From Nitrospirota bacterium (GTDB lineage Bacteria > Nitrospirota > Thermodesulfovibrionia > UBA6902 > DSMQ01), in the NCBI GenBank assembly GCA_016212185.1, contig JACRGX010000056.1:31240-95239 (forward strand): DNA of 64,000 bases, given 5' to 3'. Below, piece after piece: positions 12,519 through 47,051 of this stretch. Position 1 is the stretch's first letter. The number at the start of each line of letters is the position of its first letter. The notes under the pieces are model-generated. The model ran no database searches and was not told the origin of the DNA. It saw only the letters and a list, made by a program, of their open reading frames with translations. The position numbers and the translations under genes were made by a program.

Positions 12519-12547
12519 TGTTTCTGCGCCGTGATTAAGACTGCCGG

Positions 12548-17984: not shown

Positions 17985-18788
17985 TCACTTAACAGCAAAT
18001 ATAATTATATTCCAGCAGTATCTTTTTAAAAAAGGGAGTTGGTGTAAAAAATAATTATCAATCCTTTCCAGCCTCATATAGGTCTTTTCAAGTTTTCTGT
18101 GTTCCTTGAGAATTTTTTTCCAGTATCTTTCTTTGTTGGGGTCCACCCTGTCAATAAGATAATATTTAATGAATATCCAGAGAAGAAAGAACCATGTCGC
18201 ATAAGTTTCCAGGCGTGAAAAATATTTATTAAATATTTTCAGATCCCTCATGCTGAGCGGATGCTCATCTTCTGTTCTGACCTCATTGGCTATCCGCCTG
18301 TATATATTCAGTAGGATATTATGCGCAAGCGGGTCCCATGATACGAATATTCCGCCTTTTCTCAAAACCCTGTGAGCTTCTCTGACTGTACTTTCAATAT
18401 CAACATGATGAAGCAGGTTTGCGGCATAAACGATATCAAATGTCTCGTCTTCAAAAATAGTCTTATGTGAGTCTAACTGCTCGGTCAGTATGCTGACGCC
18501 GTGTTTTGAAGCAACTTTCTTTACGACTTCAAGCATCCCGGCTGAAATATCCGTCGCAATGACATCAGCGCCCTTTTTTGCAAAATATACAGAAGCCTCT
18601 CCAGCGCCGCAGCCGAGTTCCAGTATCTTTTTACCTTTCAGGTCTCCCAGTTTCCTGATAATCAGCCTGTTTTCAGGGGAAGTGCATGCCTCAAAAGATT
18701 CGTCAACCATGACCTCGTTAATATTTATTGAATCCGCCCACCTGTCATGGAATATCTCTTCTTTCCGGAATGCCTTATTCTCTGTCAC
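17985..18788 (-). CDS. class I SAM-dependent methyltransferase
   Basis: ILELGCGAGEASVYFAKKGADVIATD motif I. Confidence 0.75.
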   Translation of the reverse strand: MTENKAFRKEEIFHDRWADSININEVMVDESFEACTSPENRLIIRKLGDLKGKKILELGCGAGEASVYFAKKGADVIATDISAGMLEVVKKVASKHGVSILTEQLDSHKTIFEDETFDIVYAANLLHHVDIESTVREAHRVLRKGGIFVSWDPLAHNILLNIYRRIANEVRTEDEHPLSMRDLKIFNKYFSRLETYATWFFLLWIFIKYYLIDRVDPNKERYWKKILKEHRKLEKTYMRLERIDNYFLHQLPFLKRYCWNIIIFAVK

Positions 18789-18813
18789 AAAACCCTTTTA
18801 ACAAAAATGAGGC

Positions 18814-20651: not shown

Positions 20652-20679
20652 ATATTATCAGCTTGTGCATGAATTATTA

Positions 20680-25015: not shown

Positions 25016-25017
25016 TT

Positions 25018-26427: not shown

Positions 26428-26432
26428 GATTT

Positions 26433-28898
26433 TTAATAAACGTTTTCTGTTTTTCTTTTCTCAAAAATCATAATAACGATAAAAATAATAAATCCGCAGG
26501 CTGAGATAACAGTCCATCCCCAATAATGCCTGAGGCTGTACTGAATCACAGCCTTTTCTGTCATATCAATGTCAACTATCCTGAACGGTCCGTTAGATAA
26601 TGGAAAATCAACACGCGATTTATTCTCCTTAACAACTTCCCATCTCCCTTCCGCGGGAATATTGGTCAGGGGAAAACTGATATTTCTGTGATATTCCAGA
26701 GGGTGGTTCATAAAAAGGGCGCCTCCCGTGCCTCTCAAATCAGGCGGCGCAGAGACCTCCCACCTGATATTGGAACTGCGTGAAAAATTCAATTTGCGTT
26801 TAAGCCTGTCTAAAACCAAAAAATCATAAACTGCTTTTTGGGAGCCTCTTGCTAATCCCTGAATAGTCTCTTTCAAAAACCTGCTGTCCGCCCCAGGGAA
26901 ATAAGTTATGTCAGGCCATGGTTCACCAAGCTCATACAGGCGCAGTCCACTGGTCTGTTTTATTTTCTTTGCCCCGATGTCATTTATTTCACGGTCTGTA
27001 AAAAGATATTTTACCCCAAGCGCCCTGAAGAGGCTTTTTGCAGAAATAACCATACTTGAATCTTTTTCAGATATCACTTTTTCAGAGCATATCCAGTTTA
27101 CCTCCATGAGATTTACGCCTTTTTTATTCAGTTCTTCAATATCATTAAGCGGCGCCCAGAAGCACCTCATCTCGGTAAAAATGCCTGTATCCGTAGGGCC
27201 GTCAAATGTGCTGAAACCCGCTAATGTAGCCTCATTGCGATACCACTGGTGTCCGGCAGAGCCGCAGTCTTCCAGGGTCAGCGCCTTATCCCTGTTTTTT
27301 ATTTCAATGCCGGAAAAAATCGGATGTCTTAAAACATCATATTTAGAAAGAAGGTCCGGCCTCTGAAACTGGTAAATTAAGAGGTAGCCGATTCCAATAA
27401 GAAGCACCAGCAGGAGCTGTGCCCTGGAAGTGTTCTTTGAAGAACTGCTGTAAACATTGAGGCGCCAGAAAGAAAAAAAAAAGATTGATATCAGTAATCC
27501 AAGTCCGGTAGTAAAAAACCGCTCCTCATGATTATGGATTAGCCCTGCGAATTCAGGCAGTTTGCCGGGCAATGCCCTCACTAACTCAGGTGAAAGCATC
27601 TGCAAAACAGAAACTGACCAGTAGACAGCATTTGCCAGGAGTACAACAGCAAGGACCAGCAATATAATTTTCATAAAATTCTTACCTGCTTTCTCCTTGT
27701 TGTTTTTAAAATATTCCGACAGCCATGCGATAAGAATAAAGCCAAACAGATTGGCAAAAAAAAGCATACGGAATAATGCATTATTAGAATATTTCATTCC
27801 CGGCATTACGCTGCGGAATATCGCCTGAAGACCCTCAAAACTCGTAATCAAAAAGGCGGCTACCCAGAAATATATCATCGCAATTATCCCTACAGGGAAA
27901 TTTTTCAATAAAGACAGATACAGCAGGATAGGGAGTATAAACAAAAAAGGGACATAAGCGTTATTGCCCAATCCAAAAACACTCAGCGAACTTATCACGG
28001 CATTCAAGTTGTTCCACGGCGCATAGCTTGAATAACTTGGGGCTACAGGCTCCCTGACAAGATAGCTCTCCAGAAGTATGGGCCCGAGGAAAAAAGAGCA
28101 AAAAAGAACTGCGGAGGAATAGCATGCAACGCCTCTTGCGATACGGCTGACCCTCTCCTTCCTTGGTATCGTGGAGTGCAAAACAAAGGCAACAGAAATC
28201 ACAACAAGGAATAAAGATATAAAAAGAAGTACTGAAAGAAAATTAGTGATAATTGAAAGGCTTAAAAAAATAAAAAGCAGGGACAAATAAAATGGGTTTC
28301 TGTGCTGCAGATATAAATAATATGCCAGAGTTATATATAACCCTGAATATAGGATTCCCGGTTGATGCGTATGAGCGTAAAAATGAAGTGACAGCGGAGT
28401 AAATAACCCGAATATCATAACCATAAACGTCCAGACAGGTGAAATTTGCAAAGTTCTGCACCAGAACAAAAACCCCAGCATCCCGTAATTCAGCAATAGA
28501 AATATCTGCACCCCCTTTGCAATATGGTCATCTGAAATGACAAGCCAGGGCAAATGGAAGGGAGAGAGGTAGCTGTATATCATTGAATCTTCCTGTGATA
28601 CCCCTCCAAAAGTCCTTTCGTTCCAGAATGGCAAATCACCTTTAAGAATGCTCTCTCTGTAAAACCTGAGAAATATGCGCTCCTGGTCAAAGAAGTCTCT
28701 CTGACCATACTGGTTGCGGAGCGTCATAGCCTCATGCACCTGCCCCGAAGATGCAAATGTGCCTGTGTACAAAACCTCTTTTGGGGCATAGGCGTACCTG
28801 CCTGAAAGATACGGCAATGCTGTCAGGATAATTATGATTTCAATCAATATGACAATTTTTACGAGTTCGCTGTTTTTATTGAACATTCTTAAGCTCAC
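26433..28898 (-). CDS. large polytopic membrane protein, YfhO/GT-C-like glycosyltransferase (putative)
   Basis: 821 aa; N-terminal about 450 aa multi-TM region plus soluble C-terminal domain, typical of GT-C enzymes. Confidence 0.4.
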   Translation of the reverse strand: MSLRMFNKNSELVKIVILIEIIIILTALPYLSGRYAYAPKEVLYTGTFASSGQVHEAMTLRNQYGQRDFFDQERIFLRFYRESILKGDLPFWNERTFGGVSQEDSMIYSYLSPFHLPWLVISDDHIAKGVQIFLLLNYGMLGFLFWCRTLQISPVWTFMVMIFGLFTPLSLHFYAHTHQPGILYSGLYITLAYYLYLQHRNPFYLSLLFIFLSLSIITNFLSVLLFISLFLVVISVAFVLHSTIPRKERVSRIARGVACYSSAVLFCSFFLGPILLESYLVREPVAPSYSSYAPWNNLNAVISSLSVFGLGNNAYVPFLFILPILLYLSLLKNFPVGIIAMIYFWVAAFLITSFEGLQAIFRSVMPGMKYSNNALFRMLFFANLFGFILIAWLSEYFKNNKEKAGKNFMKIILLVLAVVLLANAVYWSVSVLQMLSPELVRALPGKLPEFAGLIHNHEERFFTTGLGLLISIFFFSFWRLNVYSSSSKNTSRAQLLLVLLIGIGYLLIYQFQRPDLLSKYDVLRHPIFSGIEIKNRDKALTLEDCGSAGHQWYRNEATLAGFSTFDGPTDTGIFTEMRCFWAPLNDIEELNKKGVNLMEVNWICSEKVISEKDSSMVISAKSLFRALGVKYLFTDREINDIGAKKIKQTSGLRLYELGEPWPDITYFPGADSRFLKETIQGLARGSQKAVYDFLVLDRLKRKLNFSRSSNIRWEVSAPPDLRGTGGALFMNHPLEYHRNISFPLTNIPAEGRWEVVKENKSRVDFPLSNGPFRIVDIDMTEKAVIQYSLRHYWGWTVISACGFIIFIVIMIFEKRKTENVY

Positions 28899-28919
28899 TG
28901 CAGATAAATTCTGGAAACC

Positions 28920-29738
28920 CTATTTGCCGGCTTTAGCTCTGAGCCGCTCGTGTGCAATCCTCTGCTGAACACCGGCATTTATCGCCTTCAGTTCCGGATT
29001 TTCTGAAACCAGCTTTATGGCTTCAAGGGATGAAAACGCAGGATTACGATGATAAAGCATATTGTATATTCGGGACATCAACTCATAGTCTTCAGGCGTA
29101 TCAACTGTAAAGCGCAGTTCAGGATGTCTCCATTCAATGTATTTCCCTTCCGCCTGAAAATCACCGAGTTTATATTTGCCGTCTGTACGGTTATATATTC
29201 CGTAGGTTCCGTGCTCCCGGATTTTAATGTCTTTTATTTCCTCAGAAACATCAAGAATTATTCCCGCCCTGATGACCTGGACCGAGATGCCCGCAGGGAA
29301 TGTACGTTCAGCCATCCACTTATCCGAATGGTGCATATGCGTGCTGGCTGCATAATCATACCCCTTGCTGAAGAAAAAACTGACCATGTCGTCAATAAGC
29401 ACGGGGTCTATCAGCGGATTATCGCCGGTAAGGCTGACGACTACATCAGGGGTATATTTTTTTATTGCGCCTGCAAGCCTGTCCAGCACATCTTCCTCGC
29501 TTCCCCTGTAATAGTCTGTGCCGAGTTCTTCTGCAAGATGAACAAGGACGTCATCCCTTTTCTCCGTAGTAGTAGCCAAGACCACCCGGTCAATACTTCC
29601 GGCTCCGGCAGCCCTCTCAAAAACACGCTGAAGCATAGGGGCGCCTGCAAGCGGTTTTAATACTTTTCCGGGAAGGCGCGTAGAGCCCATCCGGGCTTCA
29701 ATGGTTGCTATTATTTTTTTTTGGACTGCCATCGGCAT
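28920..29738 (-). CDS. cytidylyltransferase (SpsF/PseF/acylneuraminate cytidylyltransferase family)
   Basis: KIIATIEARMGSTRLPGKVLKPLAGAPML N-terminal signature. Confidence 0.75.
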   Translation of the reverse strand: MPMAVQKKIIATIEARMGSTRLPGKVLKPLAGAPMLQRVFERAAGAGSIDRVVLATTTEKRDDVLVHLAEELGTDYYRGSEEDVLDRLAGAIKKYTPDVVVSLTGDNPLIDPVLIDDMVSFFFSKGYDYAASTHMHHSDKWMAERTFPAGISVQVIRAGIILDVSEEIKDIKIREHGTYGIYNRTDGKYKLGDFQAEGKYIEWRHPELRFTVDTPEDYELMSRIYNMLYHRNPAFSSLEAIKLVSENPELKAINAGVQQRIAHERLRAKAGK

Positions 29739-29783
29739 CAGGAATTGTTCTCAATGCCTTCCTGACATTGCATATTGGTGAGG

Positions 29784-30323
29784 TTATTTCTGCTTTTTTA
29801 TCACTGCTAAACGAACTACATCGGTAAAAAGACCGTTTCTCAGAAAATGATCCCTGAATATCCCTTCCTCAACAAAGCCTGCTTTCTTATATGCCCTGAT
29901 TGCGGCCTCATTATGGGCATTAACACCGAGACCTATCCTGTGAAGGTTCAGCTTATTAAATGCATGTGCCGCCAATAAATTTATCGCCTCGGTTCCATAG
30001 CCCTTTAATTGAGCATCTTTTTCACCTATCAAAATTGCCAGCTCGGCGCGCCTGTGAATCCAGTTTATCTCATGCAGACCGATATTCCCTATATGACGGT
30101 CGGTTGATTTTTCATGTATACAGAAAACCACGTCGTTTTTGTGTCCGCTGACGCGTTTATAAAAAACCCTCATCTTCTCCTTTGTATTCGGCCACATGGC
30201 GTGACTTGTATAGAGGTCATTGTCATGGTCGTTGAGCCACTGGAAGTATCTGTCATTATTCAGGTCAGACTCTTCAATCCCCCGGAGATAGACCTTATTG
30301 CCGATTAAAAAAGGATCCTTCAT
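29784..30323 (-). CDS. GNAT family N-acetyltransferase (RimL/PseH-like)
   Basis: 179 aa; NIGLHEINWIHRRAELAILIGEKDAQLKGYGTEA acetyl-CoA binding motif region. Confidence 0.75.
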   Translation of the reverse strand: MKDPFLIGNKVYLRGIEESDLNNDRYFQWLNDHDNDLYTSHAMWPNTKEKMRVFYKRVSGHKNDVVFCIHEKSTDRHIGNIGLHEINWIHRRAELAILIGEKDAQLKGYGTEAINLLAAHAFNKLNLHRIGLGVNAHNEAAIRAYKKAGFVEEGIFRDHFLRNGLFTDVVRLAVIKKQK

Positions 30324-30329
30324 AATTTT

Positions 30330-31703
30330 TTATACAGTCTCAATCCCTGTTCCGCCTTCAGCTACTTTTACGGGCGGCACTAATTCCAGGTCATCAAGAT
30401 AGTCAAGAAAATTTATAAGAAGCAGGTCATTATATCTTTTTGCTACAACCTGAAGGCCAAACGGGAGTCCTTTCGGTCCTGTAAATACCGGCACATTTAC
30501 AGCCGGGACATGGCATAAGGTCCAGATAGGACAATAATCTTTATCCCTCGCCTCTTCTACAGGCGCCTCTCCAAATGAGGACAGGCTTAGCAAAATGTCG
30601 TACTCTTCAAATACGCTGTCAAGCCTGTGAATCAGTGTCCTCTGCTCTTTCAATGCACTTGAATAATTATCAGGCGGATATGAAAACCCGAGTTTAATAT
30701 GATGCTTTAAAACATCACTCATTAACTCAGGCTGTCTGTAATATTCTTCTTTGAAATAATAGGCAAGGTCTGAATTATAGATATGAGAATGAATCGCATG
30801 GACATTTTCAAATCCTTCGGGAAGTCCGGCTTCTTCTATTAATATATTTTCATTTGCCAGTCGGCTGATAAAATCAATGAAGTCCTTCTTAGCATATTCA
30901 GAAACACCATTCCATATACTGCCTTTAACAATACCCACTTTCCAGAATTTTCTTCCTATATCCTTTAACAGTTTTTCTTCTTTGAGGGGATGGTCCCTGC
31001 CTCCTATTCTTGCGGAATCGAACAGCAGCTTAATGTCACGGACTGAACGCGTAAAAAACCCTACCTGGTCCAGAGTTTCCATTGTCTTAAGCACCCCTGT
31101 CCTCGGAATCATGCCAAAAGTGGGTTTCATGGCATATATACCGCAGTAGCTCGCCGGTCGTATCAAGGAGCCTGCTGTCTGTGTACCCAGAGCAACAGGA
31201 ACCATCAAGGATGCAACCGCTGCGGCAGAACCGCTTGAAGAAGTTCCGGGCGTGTGTTTGATATTGTGAGGGTTTCTTGTCGCCCCGGGAAAATGAACGG
31301 CAAATTCGGCAGTAACAGTTTTGCCCATGATTATCCCGTCATCCCACATCATCTGTTCTACAACCCTCGCGTCATTGCCGGCCTTATGCCCCTTCCATAT
31401 CGGACTCCCCATTTCAACAGGGAACCCCCTTGTATTAAATATGTCCTTAACGCCGATTGGAACCCCGCACAGTCTGCCGCAAACCTTACCGCGTGACAAA
31501 TTATTGTCCACTGCGGCGGTCTGTTCAAAGACATGCTCCTCATTAAGAAATTCCCATGCGCTGATTTTCCCCTCCAAACTTCTGATTCTTTCAAGATATG
31601 TCATGGCAACATCAGCGGCGGAAAGATTCCCGGACCGTATTTCTTTGACAATATCAGATGCCGTTTTAATTAATTTGATATTGACTACGCCTGAACTATT
31701 CAT
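30330..31703 (-). CDS. amidase signature family protein
   Basis: GTSSSGSAAAVASLMVPVALGTQTAGSLIRPAS amidase signature (GGSSGG-type). Confidence 0.8.
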   Translation of the reverse strand: MNSSGVVNIKLIKTASDIVKEIRSGNLSAADVAMTYLERIRSLEGKISAWEFLNEEHVFEQTAAVDNNLSRGKVCGRLCGVPIGVKDIFNTRGFPVEMGSPIWKGHKAGNDARVVEQMMWDDGIIMGKTVTAEFAVHFPGATRNPHNIKHTPGTSSSGSAAAVASLMVPVALGTQTAGSLIRPASYCGIYAMKPTFGMIPRTGVLKTMETLDQVGFFTRSVRDIKLLFDSARIGGRDHPLKEEKLLKDIGRKFWKVGIVKGSIWNGVSEYAKKDFIDFISRLANENILIEEAGLPEGFENVHAIHSHIYNSDLAYYFKEEYYRQPELMSDVLKHHIKLGFSYPPDNYSSALKEQRTLIHRLDSVFEEYDILLSLSSFGEAPVEEARDKDYCPIWTLCHVPAVNVPVFTGPKGLPFGLQVVAKRYNDLLLINFLDYLDDLELVPPVKVAEGGTGIETV

Positions 31704-31728
31704 CTAAAAACCGCCGTCTCTGGAGCTA

Positions 31729-32874
31729 TCAGGGCAAACGCCCTGCCGCTCCTTTTCTCTGTCCCTTTATTTCCTTTATTATCTCTGCTTCGCTGAGGCC
31801 TGTAATTTCCATATAATATTTCAGCGCTTCAGGTTTAAGTGAATCATATTTTTTTATCATTTCAAAGCCCTCTTCCTGCGTCAATATGCCGGCCCTGACG
31901 TCTCTGGTGGCATGGTCAGTGGTGCGTCCGAAGCCGCGTTTCAGATATTTTAAATAATCATGCACTCCTGCCATGTTACATTCTACGCTTTTATAACCTT
32001 TGTATGTACCTTCAACATCTCCCTCTCTCCAGCCATATTCCTTCTTTATAAAATCCACCTGCCGTTCATCATCCCAGAATATATAATCTCCAAGATGTAT
32101 TCCTTCAACCCCTGCCTTCCTCATCTCTTCAGCTGTGGGAAACATGAAAGGCCTCAATTCACTTCTTTTAATCTCATCACTTACCATTTGGTCAATGCCG
32201 ACTTTTGAAGATATCTTTTGAAAATATTCCGCGTCATATCTGACAGGGTTAAAGTATGTAGCCTTAGTGCCGTTTTCAGCCGCTGATTCACCCCAAATAA
32301 TAAGTTTTATGCCGAATTTTATGGCTACCTGCAGGGGAAATGCGCCAACCCCTGCGTGGCAGTGCCAGCAGGAGTCGCCTATTTTATAAAGCGACTGTTT
32401 TGCAAGGCGGTCTACAAGGCTTTTCTTGGGTGTGAACATTATATGGTCAATATCAAATTTTTCAAGACAGTTCTGCAAATTATATTTCCCTGTTTCAGAA
32501 AACCATGTATGGCTGAAAGTCACGGCAAGAGGACGCATTCCCAAAACTTTTGTAACAACATGAAGCTGGTATGTGCTGTCTTTACCGCCGCTGATAGGCA
32601 CAATACAGTGATAATTATCCCCTGCAATTTTTTTATTATGCTCCACTTTCTTAAGCAATTCGTTCCATCTGTCTTCCCAGTTTATCTTCATCTTCTGTTC
32701 CGAACTGTTACAACCCGAGCATATTCCTCTCTCATCAAAGGTTATACCCTCAACAGTCTCAGGCAGACAGCAGCGGACACAGTATTTCAACTGGGGGAAA
32801 GGGACTTCAAGCTCTCCTTTTTTTACGGCTTTTTCTGTTTTGATTTTATCAATTAATTTCATAATTGCCTCCAC
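31729..32874 (-). CDS. N-acetyl sugar amidotransferase (PP-loop ATPase; PseA/WbuX-like)
   Basis: N-terminal CxxC zinc ribbon plus IVPISGGKDSTYQ PP-loop (SGGKDS). Confidence 0.75.
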   Translation of the reverse strand: MEAIMKLIDKIKTEKAVKKGELEVPFPQLKYCVRCCLPETVEGITFDERGICSGCNSSEQKMKINWEDRWNELLKKVEHNKKIAGDNYHCIVPISGGKDSTYQLHVVTKVLGMRPLAVTFSHTWFSETGKYNLQNCLEKFDIDHIMFTPKKSLVDRLAKQSLYKIGDSCWHCHAGVGAFPLQVAIKFGIKLIIWGESAAENGTKATYFNPVRYDAEYFQKISSKVGIDQMVSDEIKRSELRPFMFPTAEEMRKAGVEGIHLGDYIFWDDERQVDFIKKEYGWREGDVEGTYKGYKSVECNMAGVHDYLKYLKRGFGRTTDHATRDVRAGILTQEEGFEMIKKYDSLKPEALKYYMEITGLSEAEIIKEIKGQRKGAAGRLP

Positions 32875-32900
32875 GTATCTTTATTTAACCTTAACCCCGG

Positions 32901-33935
32901 TTAGCTGCCTGCTTTATCAATATTATTGTACGTCAATGGCTCTTCGCTATCTATATCCTTTTGGGCGATAAATGAGCTGACAGTATCAAAATCTTCAAAA
33001 GAGACACTGTTTGCAGGTACCGGTCTTAACCAGATGACGTCTGCGGCAGTTATTTTTTGTCCTTTACGGATATTGTATTTAGCATATGCACTGCGGCGCA
33101 GGTTTGTCCTTCCGTATTCCTCAGAGGGCTGGATTTTTCTCGGATAATCTCCCATCATTTTCTCCAGCCGCCTGATGTCCCTGATAAAGTCTGACATCTC
33201 CTTAGGCTCAAGTGAAAGCGCACGGTCCCCCCCGGGAATAGACCGGTCAAGAATAAAATGCTTCTCAATTACAACCGCCCCAGTTGCCACTGCAGCAAGC
33301 GGGGCAAGGGTGTCAGCAGTATGGTCGGAATATCCCACCGGCAACCCGTATCTTTGATTATAAAAAGGTATCAGAGACAGACCTGTTTCATTATCAGGGA
33401 CAGGATACGCGCCGATACAGTGAAGCAGAATTGACCCTTTTTTCGGGAGCATTTCAGCAAGCCTGTCTACCTCCTCCTGCTTGCAAAATCCGGTTGATAC
33501 GAGAACCGGCTTGCCTTTTGAAATAACGTGCCTAAGCAAAGGCAGATTATTTGCATCTCCTGATGCAACTTTGAACGCCGGTACAATATCATCAAGAAAA
33601 TCAGCGCTCTTTTCGTCAAAAGGGGTGCATAAAAATACCATGCCAATAGATTCCGCCTTCTGCGCCAATTCCCGGAAGACTCCTCCGGGAAGAACCATAC
33701 TTTTAAATCTCTCCCTTTGTGTGCCGTGTGATTTATCAGGCACATGTTTAAGCACCGGCGCATCTTTGCTTACAAGGAGCTCCGGGTCAAAAAGCTGGAA
33801 TTTAACGGCATCCGCCCCGCTTGCAGCCGCAGCTTCAAGGGTTTTCATGGCAAGCTCGGCATCGCCCAAATGATTGTTTCCGATTTCGGCAATTATAAAT
33901 GTCTTTCTGCCAATTTCAAAATTACCTATTTTCAT
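32901..33935 (-). CDS. nonulosonic acid synthase (N-acetylneuraminate synthase family, NeuB/PseI/LegI-like)
   Basis: FIIAEIGNNHLGDAELAMKTLEAAAASGADAVKFQ hallmark; C-terminal SAF-like domain. Confidence 0.9.
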   Translation of the reverse strand: MKIGNFEIGRKTFIIAEIGNNHLGDAELAMKTLEAAAASGADAVKFQLFDPELLVSKDAPVLKHVPDKSHGTQRERFKSMVLPGGVFRELAQKAESIGMVFLCTPFDEKSADFLDDIVPAFKVASGDANNLPLLRHVISKGKPVLVSTGFCKQEEVDRLAEMLPKKGSILLHCIGAYPVPDNETGLSLIPFYNQRYGLPVGYSDHTADTLAPLAAVATGAVVIEKHFILDRSIPGGDRALSLEPKEMSDFIRDIRRLEKMMGDYPRKIQPSEEYGRTNLRRSAYAKYNIRKGQKITAADVIWLRPVPANSVSFEDFDTVSSFIAQKDIDSEEPLTYNNIDKAGS

Positions 33936-33965
33936 TTATCAATAAAAAGACGCCCGCAGGCGGTA

Positions 33966-35384
33966 TTACTTTTCATAAAGGTACTTATCTTTCGGTACCC
34001 TGTCCAAATATCCCTCTTTCATGATTTGAGAAGCCAGCCATATTGAAAATTCATTATTTACTACTTCAATGCTTTCATTCTGCGACAGCTCAATAAAACC
34101 GATGGAATTCCCGAGCCAGTCTTTTCCAAGCAGATTTTTTGTCTTAACAATTCGTATGCCGCCGGTCTCCAAATATAGGGTATCGCTGTCTTCCTTCATT
34201 ATCTTTCTGTCATACCCGAATGGCACCAGTCCGCTTGGTCCTGGTCTCCAGTAAAAGTCATAATGCTCCATAACTGAGATCACTGAGTCATAATCATGTA
34301 TCAACATTGTATCAATAGCCTCGGTCAGATGATAAGATTTTATAAAAGGACAGTTTATTGAAATCGTTGCCATTATGTCAGGCATGCTATGCCCCCTTTT
34401 ATCCATCTCTCTGACAAAGTAGCTCACAACTTCACCCCTTGTTACAGTCGGGCTTGCTAATCCCTTTGGGTGCAGTCCCAGCGACTTTGCTCCGTATTTT
34501 ACGGCAATCTCCTCTACTTCCTCATCATCGGTCAATATATAAACATCCTGCATATATTCACATTCCATTAATGCATTAAGGGAATAATTTATGAGCGGCA
34601 TGCCATTTATATCTGCAAGTGCAATCTTAGGAATGCCCGATTTCTTAAGAAAAACTGATTCGCGAATCAATCCAATAACCTTCCTGTCTGCCCCAACTTT
34701 TTCTCTGACAAATTCGTGCTTGACATGCCTGCGCGCCATTGACCGTTTCTCTGAGTTTGTTGACATAGTTCCTTCATGTCTGCGGTAATACATAAGCGGC
34801 AGCCTTACATTATAGACATTGAACCTGTTGATAAAACGGAGCCAGAAGTCATAATCCTCCTGATATTTTAGTTCCTCATTATAACCGCCGATTTCGTCAT
34901 AGCACTGTTTCCTGTACATAGCCCCTGCGCCTAATGGAGCCCTGTCCAGGAGTTTGATCTCATCATTGCTCTTCATCAGCCTGTAATGCTCTATAATATT
35001 GCCGGAGTAGTCAACTTTAAAATAGTCCGAATAGACAAGGTGGACCTCTGGCTTAGAGTCCAGTATCCGGCTTTCAACCAATAAGGCATTTTCATCAAAG
35101 TAGTCATCGGCGTCCAGCCTTATGATGTATTGCCCCCTTGACTCCCTGATTGCAGCGTTGCATGCAGCAGCCAGCCCCACGCCTTTAAGTCTGACGACCC
35201 TGACTTTAGGATGTTTAGTATATTTTTCAAGAACTTCATCCGTATGGTCGGTGCTGCCGTCTTCAGCTATGATAAGTTCAAACTCCTGGCATGTCTGGTT
35301 TAGTACGCTATCTATTGCCTGCCCCAGAAACTTTGCATAATTATGCGCTGTCAGTATTACGCTTATTTTTGGTTTGTCACTCAT
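33966..35384 (-). CDS. bifunctional GT2 glycosyltransferase / cytidylyltransferase-like protein
   Basis: ISVILTAHNYAKFL...IIAEDGSTDHT (GT2) then C-terminal CMP-sugar synthetase-like domain. Confidence 0.55.
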   Translation of the reverse strand: MSDKPKISVILTAHNYAKFLGQAIDSVLNQTCQEFELIIAEDGSTDHTDEVLEKYTKHPKVRVVRLKGVGLAAACNAAIRESRGQYIIRLDADDYFDENALLVESRILDSKPEVHLVYSDYFKVDYSGNIIEHYRLMKSNDEIKLLDRAPLGAGAMYRKQCYDEIGGYNEELKYQEDYDFWLRFINRFNVYNVRLPLMYYRRHEGTMSTNSEKRSMARRHVKHEFVREKVGADRKVIGLIRESVFLKKSGIPKIALADINGMPLINYSLNALMECEYMQDVYILTDDEEVEEIAVKYGAKSLGLHPKGLASPTVTRGEVVSYFVREMDKRGHSMPDIMATISINCPFIKSYHLTEAIDTMLIHDYDSVISVMEHYDFYWRPGPSGLVPFGYDRKIMKEDSDTLYLETGGIRIVKTKNLLGKDWLGNSIGFIELSQNESIEVVNNEFSIWLASQIMKEGYLDRVPKDKYLYEK

Positions 35385-35394
35385 TATTAATTCT

Positions 35395-36393
35395 CTATTT
35401 ACTGTTCTTGAAATATTTAAATGTTTTTTTCAGCCCGGATTTCAGGTCATGTTCCGGTTCAAACCCAAGGATATTTTTTGCCTTTGAAATATCTGCAAAG
35501 TTTCTCTTTACATCACCGGGTCTCTGTTCTGAATAAATAATATTCACATCCCTGCCGGTTTCTTTCTTCACAATTTCCTTTATTGCCTCCGCAATCTCAT
35601 TTACCGTGGTCTCCTTATGCGTAGCGATCTGGAAGACCTCGCCTCCTATGTCAGCCTTCACAGAAAGCATAATAGCATTAATTAGGTCCTCAATAAATAT
35701 AAAATCCCTTGTCTGTTCCCCATTGCCGTAAATCTCAATGCGCTCCCCGGCAAGCGCATTTTTAAAGAATTTTGCCACCACACTGTTTTTATTTTTTGAC
35801 AGATGGCCGTAAACGTTGCTGAATCTGAGGGCTATTGTTTTCACGCCGAAGGTCCTGAAATAGGCTGAACAGTATGCCTCACCTGCAAGTTTGCTTGCAC
35901 CGTATGGTGATACCGGTCTTGGCGCCTTATCCTCATGAACAGGCGGAACAACATCACCCAGCGGGGCCCCGGAAGAGGCAAAAATAAACTTTTTTATGCC
36001 CTGCCGCCTTGATGCTTCCAGCATATTTAATGTTCCAATGACATTTGCCTCCATATCTGCCCTTGGATTTTCAACAGACTGCGGGACGCCCGTGCTTGCC
36101 GCAAGATGGACAACAACATCTACCGAACTGCAGCAACGAATGCAGGCCTCAGGGTTTCTGATGTCGCCGATGACGAGTTCAAGCCCTTCAGGGCGGCCTT
36201 TAAGTGACAATACATCTTTCTCTATAAAAGGTCCGGCTCCTGACAGTGCATCCCTGCTTCCTGAAGAAAGATTATCAAGTATTCTTATATTAACACCCGG
36301 GACTTCTTTCAGCAGTCTGTATATTAATGTGCTTCCTATAAATCCGCAGCCGCCGGTTATAAGCCATGACCGGGCATCTAAAAGTTCAGTCAA
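35395..36393 (-). CDS. NAD-dependent epimerase/dehydratase (UDP-sugar 4-epimerase/decarboxylase-like)
   Basis: ITGGCGFIGSTL, YGASK catalytic YxxxK. Confidence 0.8.
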   Translation of the reverse strand: MTELLDARSWLITGGCGFIGSTLIYRLLKEVPGVNIRILDNLSSGSRDALSGAGPFIEKDVLSLKGRPEGLELVIGDIRNPEACIRCCSSVDVVVHLAASTGVPQSVENPRADMEANVIGTLNMLEASRRQGIKKFIFASSGAPLGDVVPPVHEDKAPRPVSPYGASKLAGEAYCSAYFRTFGVKTIALRFSNVYGHLSKNKNSVVAKFFKNALAGERIEIYGNGEQTRDFIFIEDLINAIMLSVKADIGGEVFQIATHKETTVNEIAEAIKEIVKKETGRDVNIIYSEQRPGDVKRNFADISKAKNILGFEPEHDLKSGLKKTFKYFKNSK

Positions 36394-36405
36394 AATATCA
36401 ATCCC

Positions 36406-37596
36406 CTATTTACCATTAATGAAGTCGCACCTTACCCTCTTCCCGTCCCAGCGGATGTCAGGTATGAGAGCCTCTTTGCGCGCCTCTATTCTGTTTTTGT
36501 ACTTTATAAGGTCCTTTAACATAATGCCGATTTCATGCTCAATATCATGGGTTGGTTTATATCCAAGGTCAAGAAGGCGCTGATGGTCCGGTTTAAAATA
36601 ATGCTCTTCAAGCTCCTTCCTCGGATTAATCAGATTTCTGATCTGAACATCCAGCCCAAAACTATCGCCGACTTTTTTTACCTTCCCGGCGAGTTCAGTA
36701 ATGTCATAAACCTCCTCAAACTGGTTAAACACTCTGTACTCACCGGCTCCAGGAGGATTCTCAACAGTAATCGCCAAACATTGCATTGAGTCCCTCAAAG
36801 GGAGAAAACCCCTTTTCTGATGTCCCTTGCCATAAGGAGACAGAGGATGCCCTATTACCGCCTCACAGCAAAAACGGTTAATAGCCGTACCAAAGCTCTG
36901 GTCAAAATCCAGTCTGGTCAGCAAACGTTCGTCATCGCCCATCTCGTCAATACGCGTTCCGAATACCACACCCTGCATAATATCCGTTGAGCGCAGGTTC
37001 CATATTCTGCACGCCATCATAACATTGTTGCTGTCATGGACCTTGCTCTGATGATACCAGCTACCGGCCTGTTTTGGAAAAGGCAGGTAATCCTTCCTAC
37101 CCCTGAACTCTACTTCAAAGAATCCCTCGGGAATATCAATTTTAGGCGTCCCATATTCTCCCATGGTCCCCAGTTTAACCAGATGGGACTCAGGACATAT
37201 GTCACGCATGGCATAAAGTATATTAAGGGTCCCAACAATATTATTTACCTGTGTCCATGTGGCGTGTTCAACGTCAATCATGCTGTATGGAGCAGACGGC
37301 ATCTCCCCAAGATGTACTATTGCCTCCGGTTTAAAATGCCTGAAAATATTCTCAATAAAATTATATTCCGTAAGGTTCCCCTTGAAAAACCTTAGGTTCT
37401 TTCCGAAGTTCTCGCGAAAAGCCTCAAGCCTCTCCGTCATTTTACATATAGGGGTTGCAGACTGAGACCCCATCTCTTGTACCCAGTCCCTTCTTAAATA
37501 ATTATCCGCTCCAGAAACCTCATGCCCCCTTTTAGTCAAATACATTGCAAGCGCCCAGCCCAGATAACCGTCAATTCCAGCGATAAAGACTCTCAA
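36406..37596 (-). CDS. UDP-sulfoquinovose synthase homologue (SQD1/SqdB/Agl3-like)
   Basis: Long colinear similarity to plant SQD1 recalled from memory: IAGIDGYLGWA, SAPYSMID, VKLGTMGEYGTP, PKQAGSWYHQSKVHD, DQSFGTAINRFC, GHPLSPYGKGHQKRGFL, FRVFNQFEE. Confidence 0.75.
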   Translation of the reverse strand: MRVFIAGIDGYLGWALAMYLTKRGHEVSGADNYLRRDWVQEMGSQSATPICKMTERLEAFRENFGKNLRFFKGNLTEYNFIENIFRHFKPEAIVHLGEMPSAPYSMIDVEHATWTQVNNIVGTLNILYAMRDICPESHLVKLGTMGEYGTPKIDIPEGFFEVEFRGRKDYLPFPKQAGSWYHQSKVHDSNNVMMACRIWNLRSTDIMQGVVFGTRIDEMGDDERLLTRLDFDQSFGTAINRFCCEAVIGHPLSPYGKGHQKRGFLPLRDSMQCLAITVENPPGAGEYRVFNQFEEVYDITELAGKVKKVGDSFGLDVQIRNLINPRKELEEHYFKPDHQRLLDLGYKPTHDIEHEIGIMLKDLIKYKNRIEARKEALIPDIRWDGKRVRCDFINGK

Positions 37597-37759
37597 ATCA
37601 TCTCCCCCTTTAATTATAATTTATACATATATATTTGCCTTTTTGAAGACTGCTCCGCCCTTTCAGTCACATCTAAGCAACCGGCAGAGTTAAGAGTTAA
37701 AAGTTAATTTTTTCTTTTTTGCACTATAACTCTTAACTTATAACTTTCAACTTTTAACT
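37597..37759 (-). promoter_or_regulatory. leader between NusG paralog and first biosynthetic gene with repeated AACT(T/C)TTAACT motifs, T-tract and inverted repeat
   Basis: gagttaagagttaaaagttaattttttctttttt ... aactcttaacttataactttcaacttttaacttta; position matches where NusG-paralog-dependent antitermination leaders occur. Confidence 0.35.
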
Positions 37760-38281
37760 TTATACTCTCTCAACATTAGCCGCTTCTATCTTTACCGCCA
37801 CTCCCTGACGGAGAATATCAACCGAAAGCACCAGCATATGCTGTCCCAGTTTTTCAACGAGTATTCCCTCAACACCGCTCAGGGAGCCGTATTTAATCCT
37901 TACCCTTTGCCCTTCTTGCAGATATGGATAAGGGTCCAGCGTTTCCTTGCTTTCAATAAGTTTTTTAAGCGATATTATTTGTTCGTCAGGGATAGGCTCA
38001 GGCTCTCCGCGTCCTGCGCCGAGGAGCCGCACCACTCCCTTAATCCGGACCACATTTAATATATCCTGCGACCTTTTTGTTGTATAAACAAATATGTACC
38101 CCGGGAACAGGGGAAATGTAACTGCTTTTTTCCTGTCCTTCCATTTTCTGAGCCGCTCCACTGCAGGCAGAAAAGCCTCAATGCCTTTCATTTTAAGCCT
38201 GTCATACACCTGAAATTCATGACGGGACCTTGTATGGACCGCATACCAGTTCTGTTCTGCATTTGCCGTTAGTTCCATCAT
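37760..38281 (-). CDS. NusG-paralog transcription antiterminator (UpxY/LoaP/RfaH-like)
   Basis: NGN domain WYAVHTRSRHEF..LPGYIFV plus C-terminal KOW (GQRVRIKYGSLSGVEGILVEK). Confidence 0.8.
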   Translation of the reverse strand: MMELTANAEQNWYAVHTRSRHEFQVYDRLKMKGIEAFLPAVERLRKWKDRKKAVTFPLFPGYIFVYTTKRSQDILNVVRIKGVVRLLGAGRGEPEPIPDEQIISLKKLIESKETLDPYPYLQEGQRVRIKYGSLSGVEGILVEKLGQHMLVLSVDILRQGVAVKIEAANVERV

Positions 38282-38886
38282 CCCTCTTTAGAAAGCAAAA
38301 ATAATTTTTTTGTATCTGCACCCATATCCATAGCCCTCTGCCTTTCGTTTTCCTTGTCTTTTAAGGATGTAATCAAAATGGCGTCATAATTTAAGCCGGC
38401 TAAATCCTGCGGGGCATAAATGTTATGCCCGAAAAAACCGTTGTCCGCCCTTTTATTGTCAATTATTCCAATCAGATTAAGCGGCAAGCCCCGCAGGGAA
38501 ACATAACATAATTCCGCAACTTCCCCGTCGCCCCATAACAGGAGGTTTTTTGCCCCTGATGAAATCATCTGTTTATAGACATTGTCTATTCTCTGGCGGA
38601 TGTCCTTGAAATAACTCAGGGAGAAATGCATATATTCATAGGTCAATCTTACCTTCTCTGTAAAACCTTTGGGGGTAAGGATATATTTGACCCTGTTTTG
38701 CGGGATAGTGGTAACCTTTATATACCCTTTTTTAGCCAGCCGCTTCATGTAGGCATTCACAAGCCCAAGGGCAACATCAAGCTTGCCCGATAGAGAGCGC
38801 TGTGTGACATGAGGCTCTTTGCTTAATTCGTCAAGGATTCTTAGTGTAATATCATCATCATGCCTGTCAGTCTTAAGCTTGTTCAT
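38278..38886 (-). CDS. Rex-like winged-helix transcriptional regulator with C-terminal Rossmann/CoA-binding-type domain
   Basis: N-term wHTH RLAKKGYIKV resembles Rex ALGKKGYGY; C-term LLLWGDGEVA...LIGIIDNKRADNGFFGHNIYAP...DAILITS parallels Rex NADH-binding domain layout. Overlaps nusG-paralog start by 4 nt. Confidence 0.45.
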   Translation of the reverse strand: MNKLKTDRHDDDITLRILDELSKEPHVTQRSLSGKLDVALGLVNAYMKRLAKKGYIKVTTIPQNRVKYILTPKGFTEKVRLTYEYMHFSLSYFKDIRQRIDNVYKQMISSGAKNLLLWGDGEVAELCYVSLRGLPLNLIGIIDNKRADNGFFGHNIYAPQDLAGLNYDAILITSLKDKENERQRAMDMGADTKKLFLLSKEG

Positions 38887-38948
38887 ATTATGAACATGAT
38901 AAGGGGTTTGAGACGGTTTGTCAAGTAAAATGATAAATTAAGAAGCCT

Positions 38949-45872: not shown

Positions 45873-47051
45873 CTAAACGATTAAGGCTCTATCTGATTTT
45901 TTCATAACCTCAATCAGGGGCTTATTCAGCTTCTCCGCAATTTTTTTGCAGTCTTCATATTCAGGCGCGGATTTCAGAATCTCATTCCCCAGCTTTGAAA
46001 TTTTCACGCGTACATTTCCAAACTCAGTTTTTACTGTCTTAATCTCACGCTGTAATGTAATTCTGTCTGCCTCATAAAATCTTACTCCAATGCTTGTTGT
46101 CTCTTTTAAAATTATTTTGATTAAGCCCTCTTTTTTATCCGCACTGCACAGCACGGTAAGCACTATGCCGGGCCTGTCCTTTTTCATAATTACCTGTGTT
46201 AAAAATACGTCAAGCGCGCCTGCCTTAAAAAGCCTCTCCATAACGTATTCATAAACCTGCGGGTTCATATCGTCAATATTGGTTTCTATAATAGTAACCC
46301 CCTGACCCCTGACCCCTGACCCCTGACCCTCTCCCACAAACACTCTCAAAACATTCGGGTGCGTTTTAAAATCCCTGCCTCCTGCGCCTATGCCGATTTT
46401 AGAAACGCTCATCACGGGCATCTGCCCGAAACCGTCAGCAAGCGAGGATATGAGCACTGCGCCTGTCGGTGTAGTAAGTTCAAATTTTGTATCCGATGAA
46501 TAAACAGGTATGTACTTCAGTAATTCCAAGGTTGCAGGCGCGGGCACGGGCAGTATGCCGTGCTCTGTCTTTATCATGCCGCTTCCTAAATTCAACGGGG
46601 AAGCATAGATTTTTTTTACCCCTAAGATATCCAGTCCGATTAACGCGCCGAAAATATCCACAATGCAGTCAACAGCGCCGAGTTCATGCAGATGGACTTT
46701 ATCAACCCTCTCCCCATGCACCTTTGCCTCTGCCTCAAAAAGCCGTCTAAAGATTGATAAACCTTTCTGCTTTACAATATTGGGAAGGGAAGATTTTTTA
46801 ATTATTCTCTCTATATCCTTCCATCTTCTGACTTCTGACTTCTGACTCCTGACTCCTGTTTTTAAGATGACCTCAATCTTCGTCGCCAAAAATCCCGCGC
46901 GTTTCACTTTCCGTGATTCTAATTCATACCCGCGCATAGGAAGTTTGGAGAGTTCCTTTTTTAATTTTTCAAGGGGAACGCCGGCATCAACCAGCGCGCC
47001 CAGAATCATATCACCGCTTATGCCTGATGAAGTGTCAAAGTATATGATCAT
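45873..47051 (-). CDS. larC: nickel-pincer cofactor biosynthesis protein LarC (DUF111)
   Basis: MIIYFDTSSGISGDMILGALVDAGVP N-terminal hallmark; contains two in-frame heptamer repeat tracts. Confidence 0.8.
   Translation of the reverse strand: MIIYFDTSSGISGDMILGALVDAGVPLEKLKKELSKLPMRGYELESRKVKRAGFLATKIEVILKTGVRSQKSEVRRWKDIERIIKKSSLPNIVKQKGLSIFRRLFEAEAKVHGERVDKVHLHELGAVDCIVDIFGALIGLDILGVKKIYASPLNLGSGMIKTEHGILPVPAPATLELLKYIPVYSSDTKFELTTPTGAVLISSLADGFGQMPVMSVSKIGIGAGGRDFKTHPNVLRVFVGEGQGSGVRGQGVTIIETNIDDMNPQVYEYVMERLFKAGALDVFLTQVIMKKDRPGIVLTVLCSADKKEGLIKIILKETTSIGVRFYEADRITLQREIKTVKTEFGNVRVKISKLGNEILKSAPEYEDCKKIAEKLNKPLIEVMKKSDRALIV
46298..46333. repeat. tandem heptamer (CCCCTGA)x4 inside larC CDS
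   Basis: Encodes GQGSGVRGQGV on minus strand. Confidence 0.8.
46825..46858. repeat. tandem heptamer (CTTCTGA)x3 plus (CTCCTGA)x2 inside larC CDS
   Basis: Encodes GVRSQKSEVRR on minus strand. Confidence 0.8.

What the first reader, a model, noticed from the sequence alone, without database searches (positions are those of the whole stretch)
37597..38886. Rex-like regulator plus NusG-paralog plus repeat-containing leader as control module of the glycan operon
A wHTH protein with a Rex-like Rossmann C-domain (38278-38886) overlaps the start of a NusG paralogue. The 163-nt leader downstream of that paralogue contains repeated AACT(T/C)TTAACT motifs, an inverted repeat and a T-tract. This fits the ops/leader-terminator logic of RfaH, LoaP and UpxY systems, but with a different regulator (Rex-like, possibly redox- or NAD(H)-sensing). 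Redox-coupled antitermination of a surface-glycan operon would be new.
Basis: partly seen in the sequence, partly recalled or inferred. Interest (0 to 1): 0.6.

Follow-up and report, generated by a model that had tools for sequence, protein, structure and literature searches.

The report
Regulator, NusG paralog and ops-like leader
A 37-kb surface-sugar operon of a Nitrospirota bacterium starts with a conserved control unit: a promoter with a palindromic operator, a DNA-binding regulator, an RfaH/UpxY-type elongation factor, and a hairpin followed by an ops-like loading site. The repeats and the redox (Rex) idea that first drew attention are not the working parts.

Summary
The two genes are real. 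A 202-aa winged-helix (wHTH) protein with a small Rossmann-like C-domain (38886..38278, minus strand) overlaps by 4 nt a 173-aa NusG paralog (38281..37760). NCBIfam places the paralog in the UpxY family. The pair heads a ~37-kb glycan operon.

The heptamer repeats in the leader exist but are not conserved. In relatives, similar inverted heptamer arrays flank an inserted 23S-rRNA-IVS-protein gene, so the window seems to hold an empty relic. There is no sense-strand T-tract or terminator.

The conserved leader element lies at 37692..37645. It is a hairpin followed by TGTRACYGARAGGGCGGAGCAGTG. The core GCG-G-AGC…GT|G resembles E. coli ops (GGCGGTAGCGTG) and the hairpin-plus-ops sites of Bacteroides UpxY. 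It is present in 54 of 62 informative loci and in 103 metagenome contigs, often ahead of EPS genes with neither gene nearby.

A second new element is the exact palindrome GTTCA-N5-TGAAC (38881-38895). It sits just after a TTGACA-17-TATCAT promoter, overlaps the regulator's start codon, and occurs in 76 of 80 loci. It is probably the regulator's own operator.

"Rex-like" holds only at the level of general fold. Redox sensing is unsupported.

Verdict: a new variant of RfaH/UpxY-type control, moderately interesting.

The parts
38896..38924 (-). Sigma-70-type promoter: TTGACA (38924-38919), 17-nt spacer, TATCAT (38901-38896)
   Evidence: It is the best promoter-like site in the region, 11 of 12 matches. 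A TTGAC-type -35 lies at a fixed distance (22-23 nt or 15 nt) upstream of the palindrome in 71 of 75 loci. The -10 ends 9 nt before the ATG and there is no Shine-Dalgarno, so the regulator mRNA is probably leaderless (inferred).
38881..38895 (.). Exact palindrome GTTCA-N5-TGAAC, the putative operator. Its right half is the regulator's ATG-AAC (Met1-Asn2).
   Evidence: It is the only exact copy in the 64-kb window. An exact copy is present in 76 of 80 loci, within 120 nt of the regulator start in 75. It is embedded in ATGAAC in 56 of 75 loci. This explains why M1 and N2 are nearly invariant. In Nitrospira loci it overlaps the -10 region instead. Binding by the regulator is inferred, not shown.
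38278..38886 (-). Regulator, 202 aa: PadR/MarR_EPS-like wHTH, a long helix (residues 72-109), and a ~90-aa Rossmann-like domain with invariant WGDGE[VI]AE
37760..38281 (-). Specialised NusG paralog, 173 aa (NGN + KOW), overlapping the regulator's stop by 4 nt (translational coupling inferred)
   Evidence: Pfam NusG E 2e-22. NCBIfam UpxY family 139.8 bits (cutoff 100). RfaH 83.1 (cutoff 144.5), LoaP 74.7 (cutoff 125) and housekeeping NusG 38.8 (cutoff 135.7) are all below cutoff. The gene lies downstream of the regulator in 47 of 62 loci that have enough flank.
37686..37761 (-). Inverted arrays of heptamers: 5 x AGTTAnn, then AAAAAAGAAAAAA, then 3 x TTAACTn.
   Evidence: The sequence is not conserved among loci. 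In L001, the closest relative, similar inverted heptamer arms at the same leader position flank a 120-aa 23S_rRNA_IVP gene (PF05635, 135.6 bits). L017 has a 43-aa remnant. Other heptamer arrays occur elsewhere in the window.
37645..37692 (-). Conserved hairpin plus ops-like element. The stem is CUCUGCCGGUUGC / GUGACUGAAAGGG(CGGAG). The conserved block is TGTGACTGAAAGGGCGGAGCAGTC (37671..37648). The predicted pause is at T37649.
   Evidence: A 17-mer with <=3 mismatches is found in 62 of 80 loci, always in the sense orientation. A covariance model built without the window hits here at 24.8 bits, E 1.9e-5, the only significant hit in 64 kb. The model gives 53 hits in the loci. The stem is 83% paired against 34-55% for slid controls. 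The flanking TGTAAC, which was not part of the search pattern, is nearly invariant. Hairpins in relatives fold with z -5 to -6. There is no Rfam match.
673..37596 (-). Co-directional glycan biosynthesis operon, about 30 genes
   Evidence: ORF map. First gene is UDP-sulfoquinovose-synthase-like (567 bits, cutoff 575). Others: epimerases, GT2 glycosyltransferases, NeuB, cytidylyltransferases, a DegT aminotransferase, a Wzx-type flippase, B12-radical-SAM enzymes, methyltransferases.

Best explanation
This is a two-tier control head for a long surface-glycan operon.

Tier 1, initiation. A sigma-70-type promoter is immediately followed by the palindrome GTTCA-N5-TGAAC. The dimeric wHTH regulator encoded right there most likely binds this palindrome and so autoregulates the promoter. 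Its activity is probably modulated by a nucleotide-type ligand bound to the small Rossmann-like C-domain. The regulator mRNA is probably leaderless, and the NusG paralog is translationally coupled to it.

Tier 2, elongation. RNA polymerase then transcribes the leader. There a nascent-RNA hairpin and a G-rich ops-like sequence (GGGCGGAGCAGT|G) probably pause it. They would expose a GCG-G-AGC hairpin on the non-template strand, and the UpxY-family NusG paralog would load onto it. The modified polymerase would then read through the ~37-kb operon without premature termination.

The same ops-like element in front of other EPS operons lets the paralog act in trans.

Shown here: the genes, their families, the conservation and positions of both cis-elements, and the predicted hairpin. 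Inferred: who binds what, the pausing, the ligand, and whether the regulator represses or activates.
For: Gene pair and families.

Module conservation across Thermodesulfovibrionia, Nitrospira and Methylomirabilota. Among 62 loci with at least 1.5 kb downstream, 47 have the paralog and 54 have the ops-like motif. The orders seen are R-N-ops, R-ops-N and R-ops. The module is also present in the cultured Dissulfurispira thermophila, in the order regulator, ops, paralog.

The ops-like element. A model built without the window detects it there, E 1.9e-5, as the single hit. The block TGTAACyGAgAGGGCGGAGCagTg is nearly invariant. The stem keeps its pairing through G-U and C-G changes and through inner hairpins of unrelated sequence. 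A metagenome scan with the motif alone gave 103 contigs. Of the 42 with at least 1.3 kb upstream, 9 have the NusG paralog but no regulator, and 17 have neither. Among the neither and paralog-only contigs whose downstream ORF I read, many precede EPS or PEP-CTERM-type genes, named from the sequences by eye and not scanned. This is the pattern expected of a trans-acting recruitment site.

Similarity to known sites. It shares GGCGG, AGC and GTG with E. coli ops (GGCGGTAGCGTG, quoted from established knowledge). It has the GG(-11/-10)...T(-1)G(+1) pause pattern. Its hairpin ends at about -9. This is the 'pause hairpin + ntDNA hairpin with 5'-GCG-AGC stems' design shown experimentally for Bacteroides UpxY opsX sites (PMC11685472).

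The operator. The exact palindrome occurs in 76 of 80 loci at a fixed distance from a TTGAC -35, and there is one copy in the window. The half-site spacing of 10 bp suits a wHTH dimer. The N-terminal half is PadR/MarR-like with a long dimerisation-type helix.

The target is a long co-directional glycan operon.
Against: No experiment exists for any member. The pause site, the non-template-strand hairpin and loading of the paralog are inferred by analogy.

In the window the +1 base is C, whereas in most loci it is G or A, and the window's hairpin is the short, weaker version (z -1.96).

Covariation in the stem is modest. The 3' arm is almost invariant, and only 4 of 12 pairs show a double change.

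Thirteen of 62 loci have the regulator and the motif but no adjacent paralog, so the motif could in principle belong to the regulator.

Six loci have the regulator and paralog but no motif within 3 mismatches.

The ligand of the C-domain is unknown.

The promoter and the leaderless start are consensus-based predictions. The organism's promoter rules are assumed to be sigma-70-like.
Confidence: 0.6

Rival explanations
1. A Rex-like NAD(H)-sensing repressor couples redox state to antitermination. The AACTxTTAACT repeats, the inverted repeat and the T-tract form the leader terminator and recruitment signal.
Confidence: 0.07
2. The hairpin-ops element is the target of the wHTH regulator (as RNA or DNA) or of another factor. 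The NusG paralog would then act without a specific site.
For: The motif follows the regulator directly, with no adjacent paralog, in 13 of 62 genome loci and 6 of 42 metagenome loci. In Nitrospira it lies between the regulator and the paralog.
Against: The motif also occurs with the paralog and no regulator (9 of 42) and with neither (17 of 42). The regulator already has a far better candidate site, the palindrome. The motif is not palindromic. Its conserved part resembles ops and a consensus pause, and the variable length of the inner hairpin argues against a duplex-DNA operator.
Confidence: 0.12
3. The element is an autonomous structured RNA, such as an RNase processing or stability site, a small riboswitch-like leader, or an sRNA. 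It would be unrelated to NusG-type elongation control.
For: Relatives have a stable, conserved hairpin (z -5 to -6). It occurs in intercistronic positions inside EPS clusters. The adjacent heptamer hairpin could also be an RNase III substrate (inference).
Against: The highest conservation is in the 3' single-stranded tail and the 3' arm, not in a ligand-pocket-like core. The element is only about 45-65 nt. It is strongly linked to NusG paralog genes. It matches no Rfam family.
Confidence: 0.12
4. The element is a promoter for an alternative (ECF-type) sigma factor, with TGTAAC as the -35.
For: TGTAAC resembles some ECF -35 boxes (from memory).
Against: The would-be spacer (GAGAGGGCGGAGCAG) is the most conserved part, and no conserved -10-like CGT box follows. 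The upstream half pairs with it as a hairpin of variable length.
Confidence: 0.04

Closest known systems
Bacteroides UpxY / opsX (Saba et al. 2024, PMC11685472; Chatzidaki-Livanis et al. 2009, from memory)
   Same: The NusG paralog passes the NCBIfam UpxY-family model. It is encoded at the head of the glycan operon it presumably serves. The leader carries a nascent-RNA hairpin directly followed by an ops-like site with GCG...AGC, a predicted pause, and a hairpin reaching about -9.
   Different: There is no UpxZ-type inhibitor. The partner gene is instead a wHTH-Rossmann regulator placed upstream. The ops-like site lies downstream of the paralog gene (or between regulator and paralog) rather than in the 5' UTR ahead of it. 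One nearly invariant ops sequence is shared across loci and taxa instead of locus-specific opsX variants. There are no invertible promoters.
E. coli RfaH / ops (JUMPstart)
   Same: A specialised NusG paralog for long envelope-glycan operons. The 12-13-nt G-rich element GGGCGGAGCAGTG compares with GGCGGTAGCGTG: GGCGG, AGC and GTG are shared, with 8 of 12 identical without gaps. The trans-acting logic is also shared, since the element is found at operons that lack the gene.
   Different: The RfaH HMM score is below cutoff (83 vs 144.5). The loop of the putative non-template-strand hairpin is one nt shorter. The element is preceded by an RNA hairpin, whereas RfaH ops is a hairpin-less class II pause. 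The Rfam JUMPstart model does not match. Fold-switching of the KOW domain was not examined.
LoaP (Firmicutes; binds a leader RNA hairpin)
   Same: A NusG paralog with a leader hairpin in its target operon.
   Different: The LoaP HMM score is below cutoff (74.7 vs 125). The targets are glycan genes, not polyketide genes. Conservation is concentrated in the tail 3' of the hairpin.
Rex redox repressor
   Same: The domain order is a wHTH followed by a small Rossmann-like nucleotide-type domain. A dimeric palindromic operator is plausible.
   Different: No detectable sequence homology in either domain. The wHTH is PadR/MarR_EPS-like. The motif is GxGxxA (WGDGEVAE), not GxGxxG. The operator is different. 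The C-domain is closer to the CAC2185 N-domain (PF22674).
MarR family EPS-associated regulator (TIGR04176)
   Same: The N-terminal 100 residues match this model over its full length (E 1e-19). Both are associated with EPS loci. A short member of this type sits behind a palindrome plus ops-like element in metagenome locus L170 (MarR_EPS type judged by eye, not scanned).
   Different: The score is below the trusted cutoff (70.6 vs 88). This protein carries an extra ~95-aa Rossmann-like domain that the 105-position model does not cover.
Heptanucleotide tandem repeats (cyanobacterial STRR, from memory) and 23S rRNA intervening-sequence protein cassettes
   Same: Tandem 7-nt units arranged as inverted arrays that flank a PF05635 gene in relatives.
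   Different: The window holds only the arms, with no gene between them. No role in control of the operon is supported.

Membership tests
Rex (redox-sensing repressor) | Rex-type N-terminal DNA-binding domain (Pfam PF06971) and a Rex NCBIfam model | tested here: not met
Rex (redox-sensing repressor) | C-terminal NAD(H)-binding Rossmann domain (Pfam CoA_binding PF02629) with GxGxxG | tested here: not met
Rex (redox-sensing repressor) | NADH/NAD+ binding that controls DNA binding | not testable with these tools
   This needs ITC or EMSA with the purified protein.
UpxY family (NCBIfam NF033644) | HMM score above the curated cutoff | tested here: met
   139.8 bits against a cutoff of 100, covering model positions 1-162 of 164.
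UpxY family (NCBIfam NF033644) | Encoded at the 5' end of the polysaccharide operon it regulates | tested here: met
   It is the second gene of the unit, directly ahead of ~30 glycan genes. The arrangement is conserved in 47 of 62 loci.
UpxY family (NCBIfam NF033644) | Leader opsX site: pause hairpin plus ops sequence | tested here: inconclusive
   A conserved hairpin plus ops-like block is present. Pausing and recruitment are not testable here.
UpxY family (NCBIfam NF033644) | Adjacent UpxZ trans-inhibitor | tested here: not met
   The downstream neighbour is a UDP-sulfoquinovose-synthase-like enzyme and the upstream neighbour is the wHTH regulator. No UpxZ model was available for a direct scan.
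RfaH (TIGR01955 / PRK09014) | HMM score above cutoff | tested here: not met
   83.1 against 144.5, and 63.8 against 124.
RfaH (TIGR01955 / PRK09014) | Canonical ops GGCGGTAGnnTG in target leaders | tested here: not met
   The element is GGGCGGAGCAGTG. It is similar but not identical, and there is no Rfam JUMPstart hit.
LoaP (NF033641) | HMM score above cutoff | tested here: not met
   74.7 against 125.
MarR_EPS (TIGR04176) | HMM score above cutoff; ~105-aa single-domain protein | tested here: not met
   70.6 against 88. The protein is 202 aa with an extra domain.
Intrinsic leader terminator (attenuator logic) | GC-rich hairpin followed by a U-tract in the sense strand of the leader | tested here: not met
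   No site in 37597-37759. The A/T-tract is the loop of the heptamer hairpin and reads as A's in the mRNA.

The most novel reading that the evidence does not exclude
The regulator's Rossmann-like domain senses a nucleotide cofactor or activated sugar (NAD(P)(H), an NDP- or CMP-sugar). It gates not only its own promoter but also, through the tightly coupled NusG paralog, processive antitermination of EPS operons. This would make glycan synthesis metabolically, and possibly redox, gated at both initiation and elongation. In addition, the near-identity of the GCG..AGC ops core in Proteobacteria, Bacteroidota and Nitrospirota would reflect an ancient, shared recruitment code for specialised NusG paralogs.
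Probability: 0.15. Interest if true: 0.75.

Novelty: new variant of a known kind. Interest (0 to 1): 0.5.

Why it matters
Specialised NusG paralogs (RfaH, UpxY, LoaP) are the main known way bacteria drive long envelope-glycan operons. Their recruitment sites are characterised in only a few model groups.

This work defines, by comparative evidence alone, a complete and strongly conserved control unit in Nitrospirota and Methylomirabilota, phyla with few genetic tools. The unit consists of a promoter, a palindromic operator, a ligand-type wHTH regulator, a NusG paralog, and a hairpin-ops site.

The ops-like core is strikingly close to E. coli ops and has the hairpin-ops design recently shown for Bacteroides. 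That bears on how old and how universal this recruitment code is.

The two cis-elements are short, exact and easy to test in vitro. They can be used to predict the EPS regulon in genomes and metagenomes, and the module is present in the cultured Dissulfurispira thermophila. The result also corrects a tempting but unsupported 'redox-coupled antitermination' reading.

Tried and rejected
- Rfam scan of 37300-39300 at E<=10 gave only chance hits (best 21.5 bits against a gathering score of 70). No JUMPstart or other family matched.
- A profile of the C-domain searched against PDB sequences gave nothing below E 0.5. Pfam gives only a sub-threshold PF22674 hit.
- The afdb50 library was unavailable.
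- My first regex for the motif was one base short and missed most sites. I replaced it with a fuzzy 17-mer search.
- A MAFFT alignment of all hairpins (A3) did not put the 5' arms in register. I built the model from 20 long-type sequences instead (A4).
- The promoter-like site inside the heptamer array (TTGAAA-16-TATAGT, 37750..37723) was considered as an internal promoter. I did not adopt it, because the array is not conserved.
- The idea that GGAG in the motif is a Shine-Dalgarno was rejected. The distance to the next start varies from about 10 to more than 100 nt, and the window has its own SD 50 nt downstream.
- Literature searches for NusG paralogs in Nitrospirota, for MarR+NusG in EPS loci, and for CAC2185/2G6T found nothing relevant. 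Wang et al. 2020 does not mention Nitrospirae.
Full report
**What is at the coordinates.** All relevant genes are on the minus strand. ORF 38886..38278 encodes a 202-aa protein, and ORF 38281..37760 encodes a 173-aa protein. The two share the four bases ATGA, with the stop TGA lying inside ATGATG. A 163-nt leader (37759..37597) follows. After it comes a run of about 30 co-directional ORFs reaching down to about position 673.

The first ORF after the leader scores 567 bits on the UDP-sulfoquinovose synthase model, against a cutoff of 575. The others include epimerases, GT2 transferases, a NeuB-family synthase, cytidylyltransferases, a DegT aminotransferase, a Wzx-type flippase, B12-radical-SAM enzymes and methyltransferases. 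'Glycan operon' is therefore correct. The window comes from a Nitrospirae MAG: the regulator is 100% identical to an NCBI protein of that origin.

**The two proteins.** The 173-aa protein is a NusG paralog. It matches Pfam NusG at E 2e-22 and the NCBIfam UpxY-family model at 139.8 bits (cutoff 100). RfaH (83), LoaP (75) and housekeeping NusG (39) are all below their cutoffs.

It sits at the beta1-alphaA turn, so it is a GxGxxA variant of the dinucleotide fingerprint, and an acidic residue lies at or next to the end of beta2. A nucleotide-type ligand is therefore plausible. Nothing points specifically to NAD(H) or to Rex.

They are real: five AGTTAnn heptamers, then AAAAAAGAAAAAA, then three TTAACTn heptamers in inverted orientation. 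Three things argue against a control role.
- The T-tract is on the antisense strand and forms the loop. No terminator-like site exists in the leader, and folding is unremarkable.
- Homologous loci have heptamer arrays at the same place but with unrelated unit sequences, or none at all.
- In the closest relative (L001, 84-91% identical proteins), similar inverted heptamer arms at the same leader position flank a 120-aa gene of the 23S-rRNA-intervening-sequence-protein family (PF05635, 135.6 bits). L017 keeps a 43-aa remnant.

The window therefore appears to hold an 'empty' relic of a small cassette. Other heptamer arrays occur elsewhere in the window. The leader looks like an insertion hotspot, since L005 carries a nucleotidyltransferase/HepT pair between two copies of the element described next.

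**What is actually conserved in the leader.** I lined up the sequence downstream of the paralog in 80 related loci from GTDB genomes. This exposed a block that is nearly invariant: TGTAACyGAgAGGGCGGAGCagTg, preceded by its complement (…GCCUUCUUGGUUAC…) and a variable inner hairpin.

A 17-mer with at most 3 mismatches occurs in 62 of 80 loci, always in the sense orientation and always downstream of the regulator. I estimate about one chance hit for the whole set. The six bases TGTAAC, which were not part of the search pattern, are nearly invariant.

A covariance model built from 20 loci, excluding the window, finds the window's copy at 37692..37645 (24.8 bits, E 1.9e-5). This is the only significant hit in 64 kb. 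The model finds 53 copies in the loci.

The outer stem is 83% paired, against 34-55% when the partners are slid. Double compensatory changes are few because the 3' arm hardly varies. The inner hairpins differ completely in sequence but always pair. In relatives the element folds with z -5 to -6, while the window has the short version at z -2. Rfam has no matching family.

**How the leader element compares with known recruitment sites.** The single-stranded tail GGGCGGAGCAGT|G shares GGCGG, AGC and GTG with E. coli ops (GGCGGTAGCGTG, established knowledge). It contains the same GCG…AGC arms that form the ops hairpin on the non-template strand. It also fits the GG(-11/-10)…T(-1)G(+1) pause pattern, and the RNA hairpin would end at about -9.

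This is the design shown experimentally for Bacteroides UpxY. There, opsX sites combine a NusA-stabilised pause hairpin reaching -12 to -9 with a non-template-strand hairpin that has '5'-GCG-AGC stems' (PMC11685472).

**Position and distribution.** Among 62 loci with enough flank, 47 have the paralog and 54 have the motif. Three orders occur: regulator–paralog–ops (30 loci, as in the window), regulator–ops–paralog (11 loci, Nitrospira and D. thermophila), and regulator–ops without an adjacent paralog (13 loci).

An unbiased metagenome scan with the motif alone returned 103 contigs. Of the 42 with at least 1.3 kb upstream, 10 have both genes, 6 have the regulator only, 9 have the paralog only, and 17 have neither. 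I read the flanking ORFs of the last two groups. Many of the downstream ones look like EPS or PEP-CTERM/exosortase-type genes: a deacetylase, an exosortase, a Wza-like exporter and a beta-barrel protein. These names come from reading the sequences, not from a family scan. This is what a trans-acting recruitment site should look like. It links the motif to the paralog independently of the regulator.

Immediately upstream of the regulator is the best promoter-like site of the region: TTGACA, 17 nt, TATCAT (38924..38896, 11 of 12 matches). Directly after the -10 comes the exact palindrome GTTCA-TAATA-TGAAC (38895..38881). Its right half is the start codon plus Asn2.

The palindrome is the only exact copy in the window. 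It is present in 76 of 80 loci at the same place. In 71 of 75 loci it follows a TTGAC-type -35 at a fixed distance: 22-23 nt in Thermodesulfovibrionia, and 15 nt in Nitrospira, where it overlaps the -10. It is embedded in ATGAAC in 56 of 75 loci. This explains the near-invariant Met-Asn start of the family.

The geometry implies a leaderless or nearly leaderless regulator mRNA. The 10-bp centre-to-centre spacing of the half-sites suits a wHTH dimer. Autoregulation by the encoded regulator is the simplest reading, but it is an inference. L054 carries a duplicated promoter and palindrome with a truncated regulator start, followed by a second hairpin-ops.

**Mechanism proposed.** The promoter and operator, controlled by the regulator (probably ligand-responsive), set initiation. 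The regulator and paralog are made together. RNAP pauses at the hairpin-ops site, the paralog loads, and RNAP becomes processive through the 37-kb operon. The same site at other EPS operons extends the regulon.

Shown: the genes, their families, the elements, and their conservation and positions. Inferred: binding partners, pausing, the ligand, and the sign of regulation. I give this 0.6.

The rivals are listed with their tests: the redox/Rex model with a repeat-based terminator (0.07), the element as the regulator's target (0.12), an autonomous RNA element (0.12), and an ECF-type promoter (0.04).

**Novelty.** The paralog is a new member of a known kind. The constant partnership with a wHTH-Rossmann regulator, the palindromic operator on a leaderless start, and a single nearly invariant hairpin-ops sequence shared across classes and phyla together make a new variant of RfaH/UpxY-type control. 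I found no description of it in the searchable literature or in Rfam.

Noticed in passing
window 46299-46329 and 46825-46858: Two heptamer tandem arrays (CCCCTGA x4.4 and CTTCTGA x4.9) lie inside the coding sequence of a LarC-like nickel-insertion protein gene (45873..47051, minus strand; Pfam Ni_insertion 492 bits). They do not break the reading frame and encode Gly/Ser/Arg-rich inserts. It is unusual to find this kind of repeat within a gene.
   Followed up: partly
L001 4370-4840; L017 5106-5400; L005 3013-3868: The leader between the NusG paralog and the ops-like element is an insertion hotspot. L001 has a full 23S_rRNA_IVP (four-helix-bundle, bAvd-like) gene flanked by inverted heptamer arrays. 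L017 has a 43-aa remnant of the same gene. L005 has a nucleotidyltransferase/HepT toxin-antitoxin pair between two copies of the hairpin-ops element.
   Followed up: yes
window 36406-37596 (minus strand); L006 4790-5395: The first gene after the leader is UDP-sulfoquinovose-synthase-like (567 bits, cutoff 575). In L006 an adenylylsulfate-kinase-like gene (read by eye from its N-terminus) occupies the same position. This hints at sulfonated or sulfated sugars in these Nitrospirota glycans.
   Followed up: no
window 20680-26427 (minus strand): Three radical-SAM enzymes, two of them with B12-binding domains, sit inside the glycan operon next to NeuB and cytidylyltransferase genes. Large unannotated ORFs are also present (821 aa at 26433-28898; 694 aa at 12548-14632). 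This suggests unusual sugar modifications.
   Followed up: no
L054 7120-7370: A duplicated promoter and GTTCA-N5-TGAAC palindrome with only the first ~13 codons of the regulator, followed ~190 nt later by a second hairpin-ops element. It is a natural 'minimal' promoter-operator-ops cassette.
   Followed up: partly
L170 4818-5633 (metagenome): A short regulator that looks MarR_EPS-like by eye (not scanned), without the Rossmann-like domain, lies downstream of a palindrome (4818) and an ops-like element (4992). The same cis-elements apparently serve the single-domain relatives too.
   Followed up: no
window 38939-38962 (minus strand) and 38949-39215: A small 88-aa ORF that looks lipoprotein-like by eye (no significant Pfam hit) ends in a weak terminator-like hairpin just upstream of the module's promoter. 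A glutamine-dependent NAD synthetase gene (39240-40985) lies further upstream. This neighbourhood is shared only with the closest relative, so it is not evidence for NAD sensing.
   Followed up: partly
L086 (Dissulfurispira thermophila BLAB01000001.1): A cultured species with a complete genome carries the module in the order regulator (P0054), hairpin-ops (401-423), NusG paralog (447-959). It is a practical organism for experiments.
   Followed up: yes
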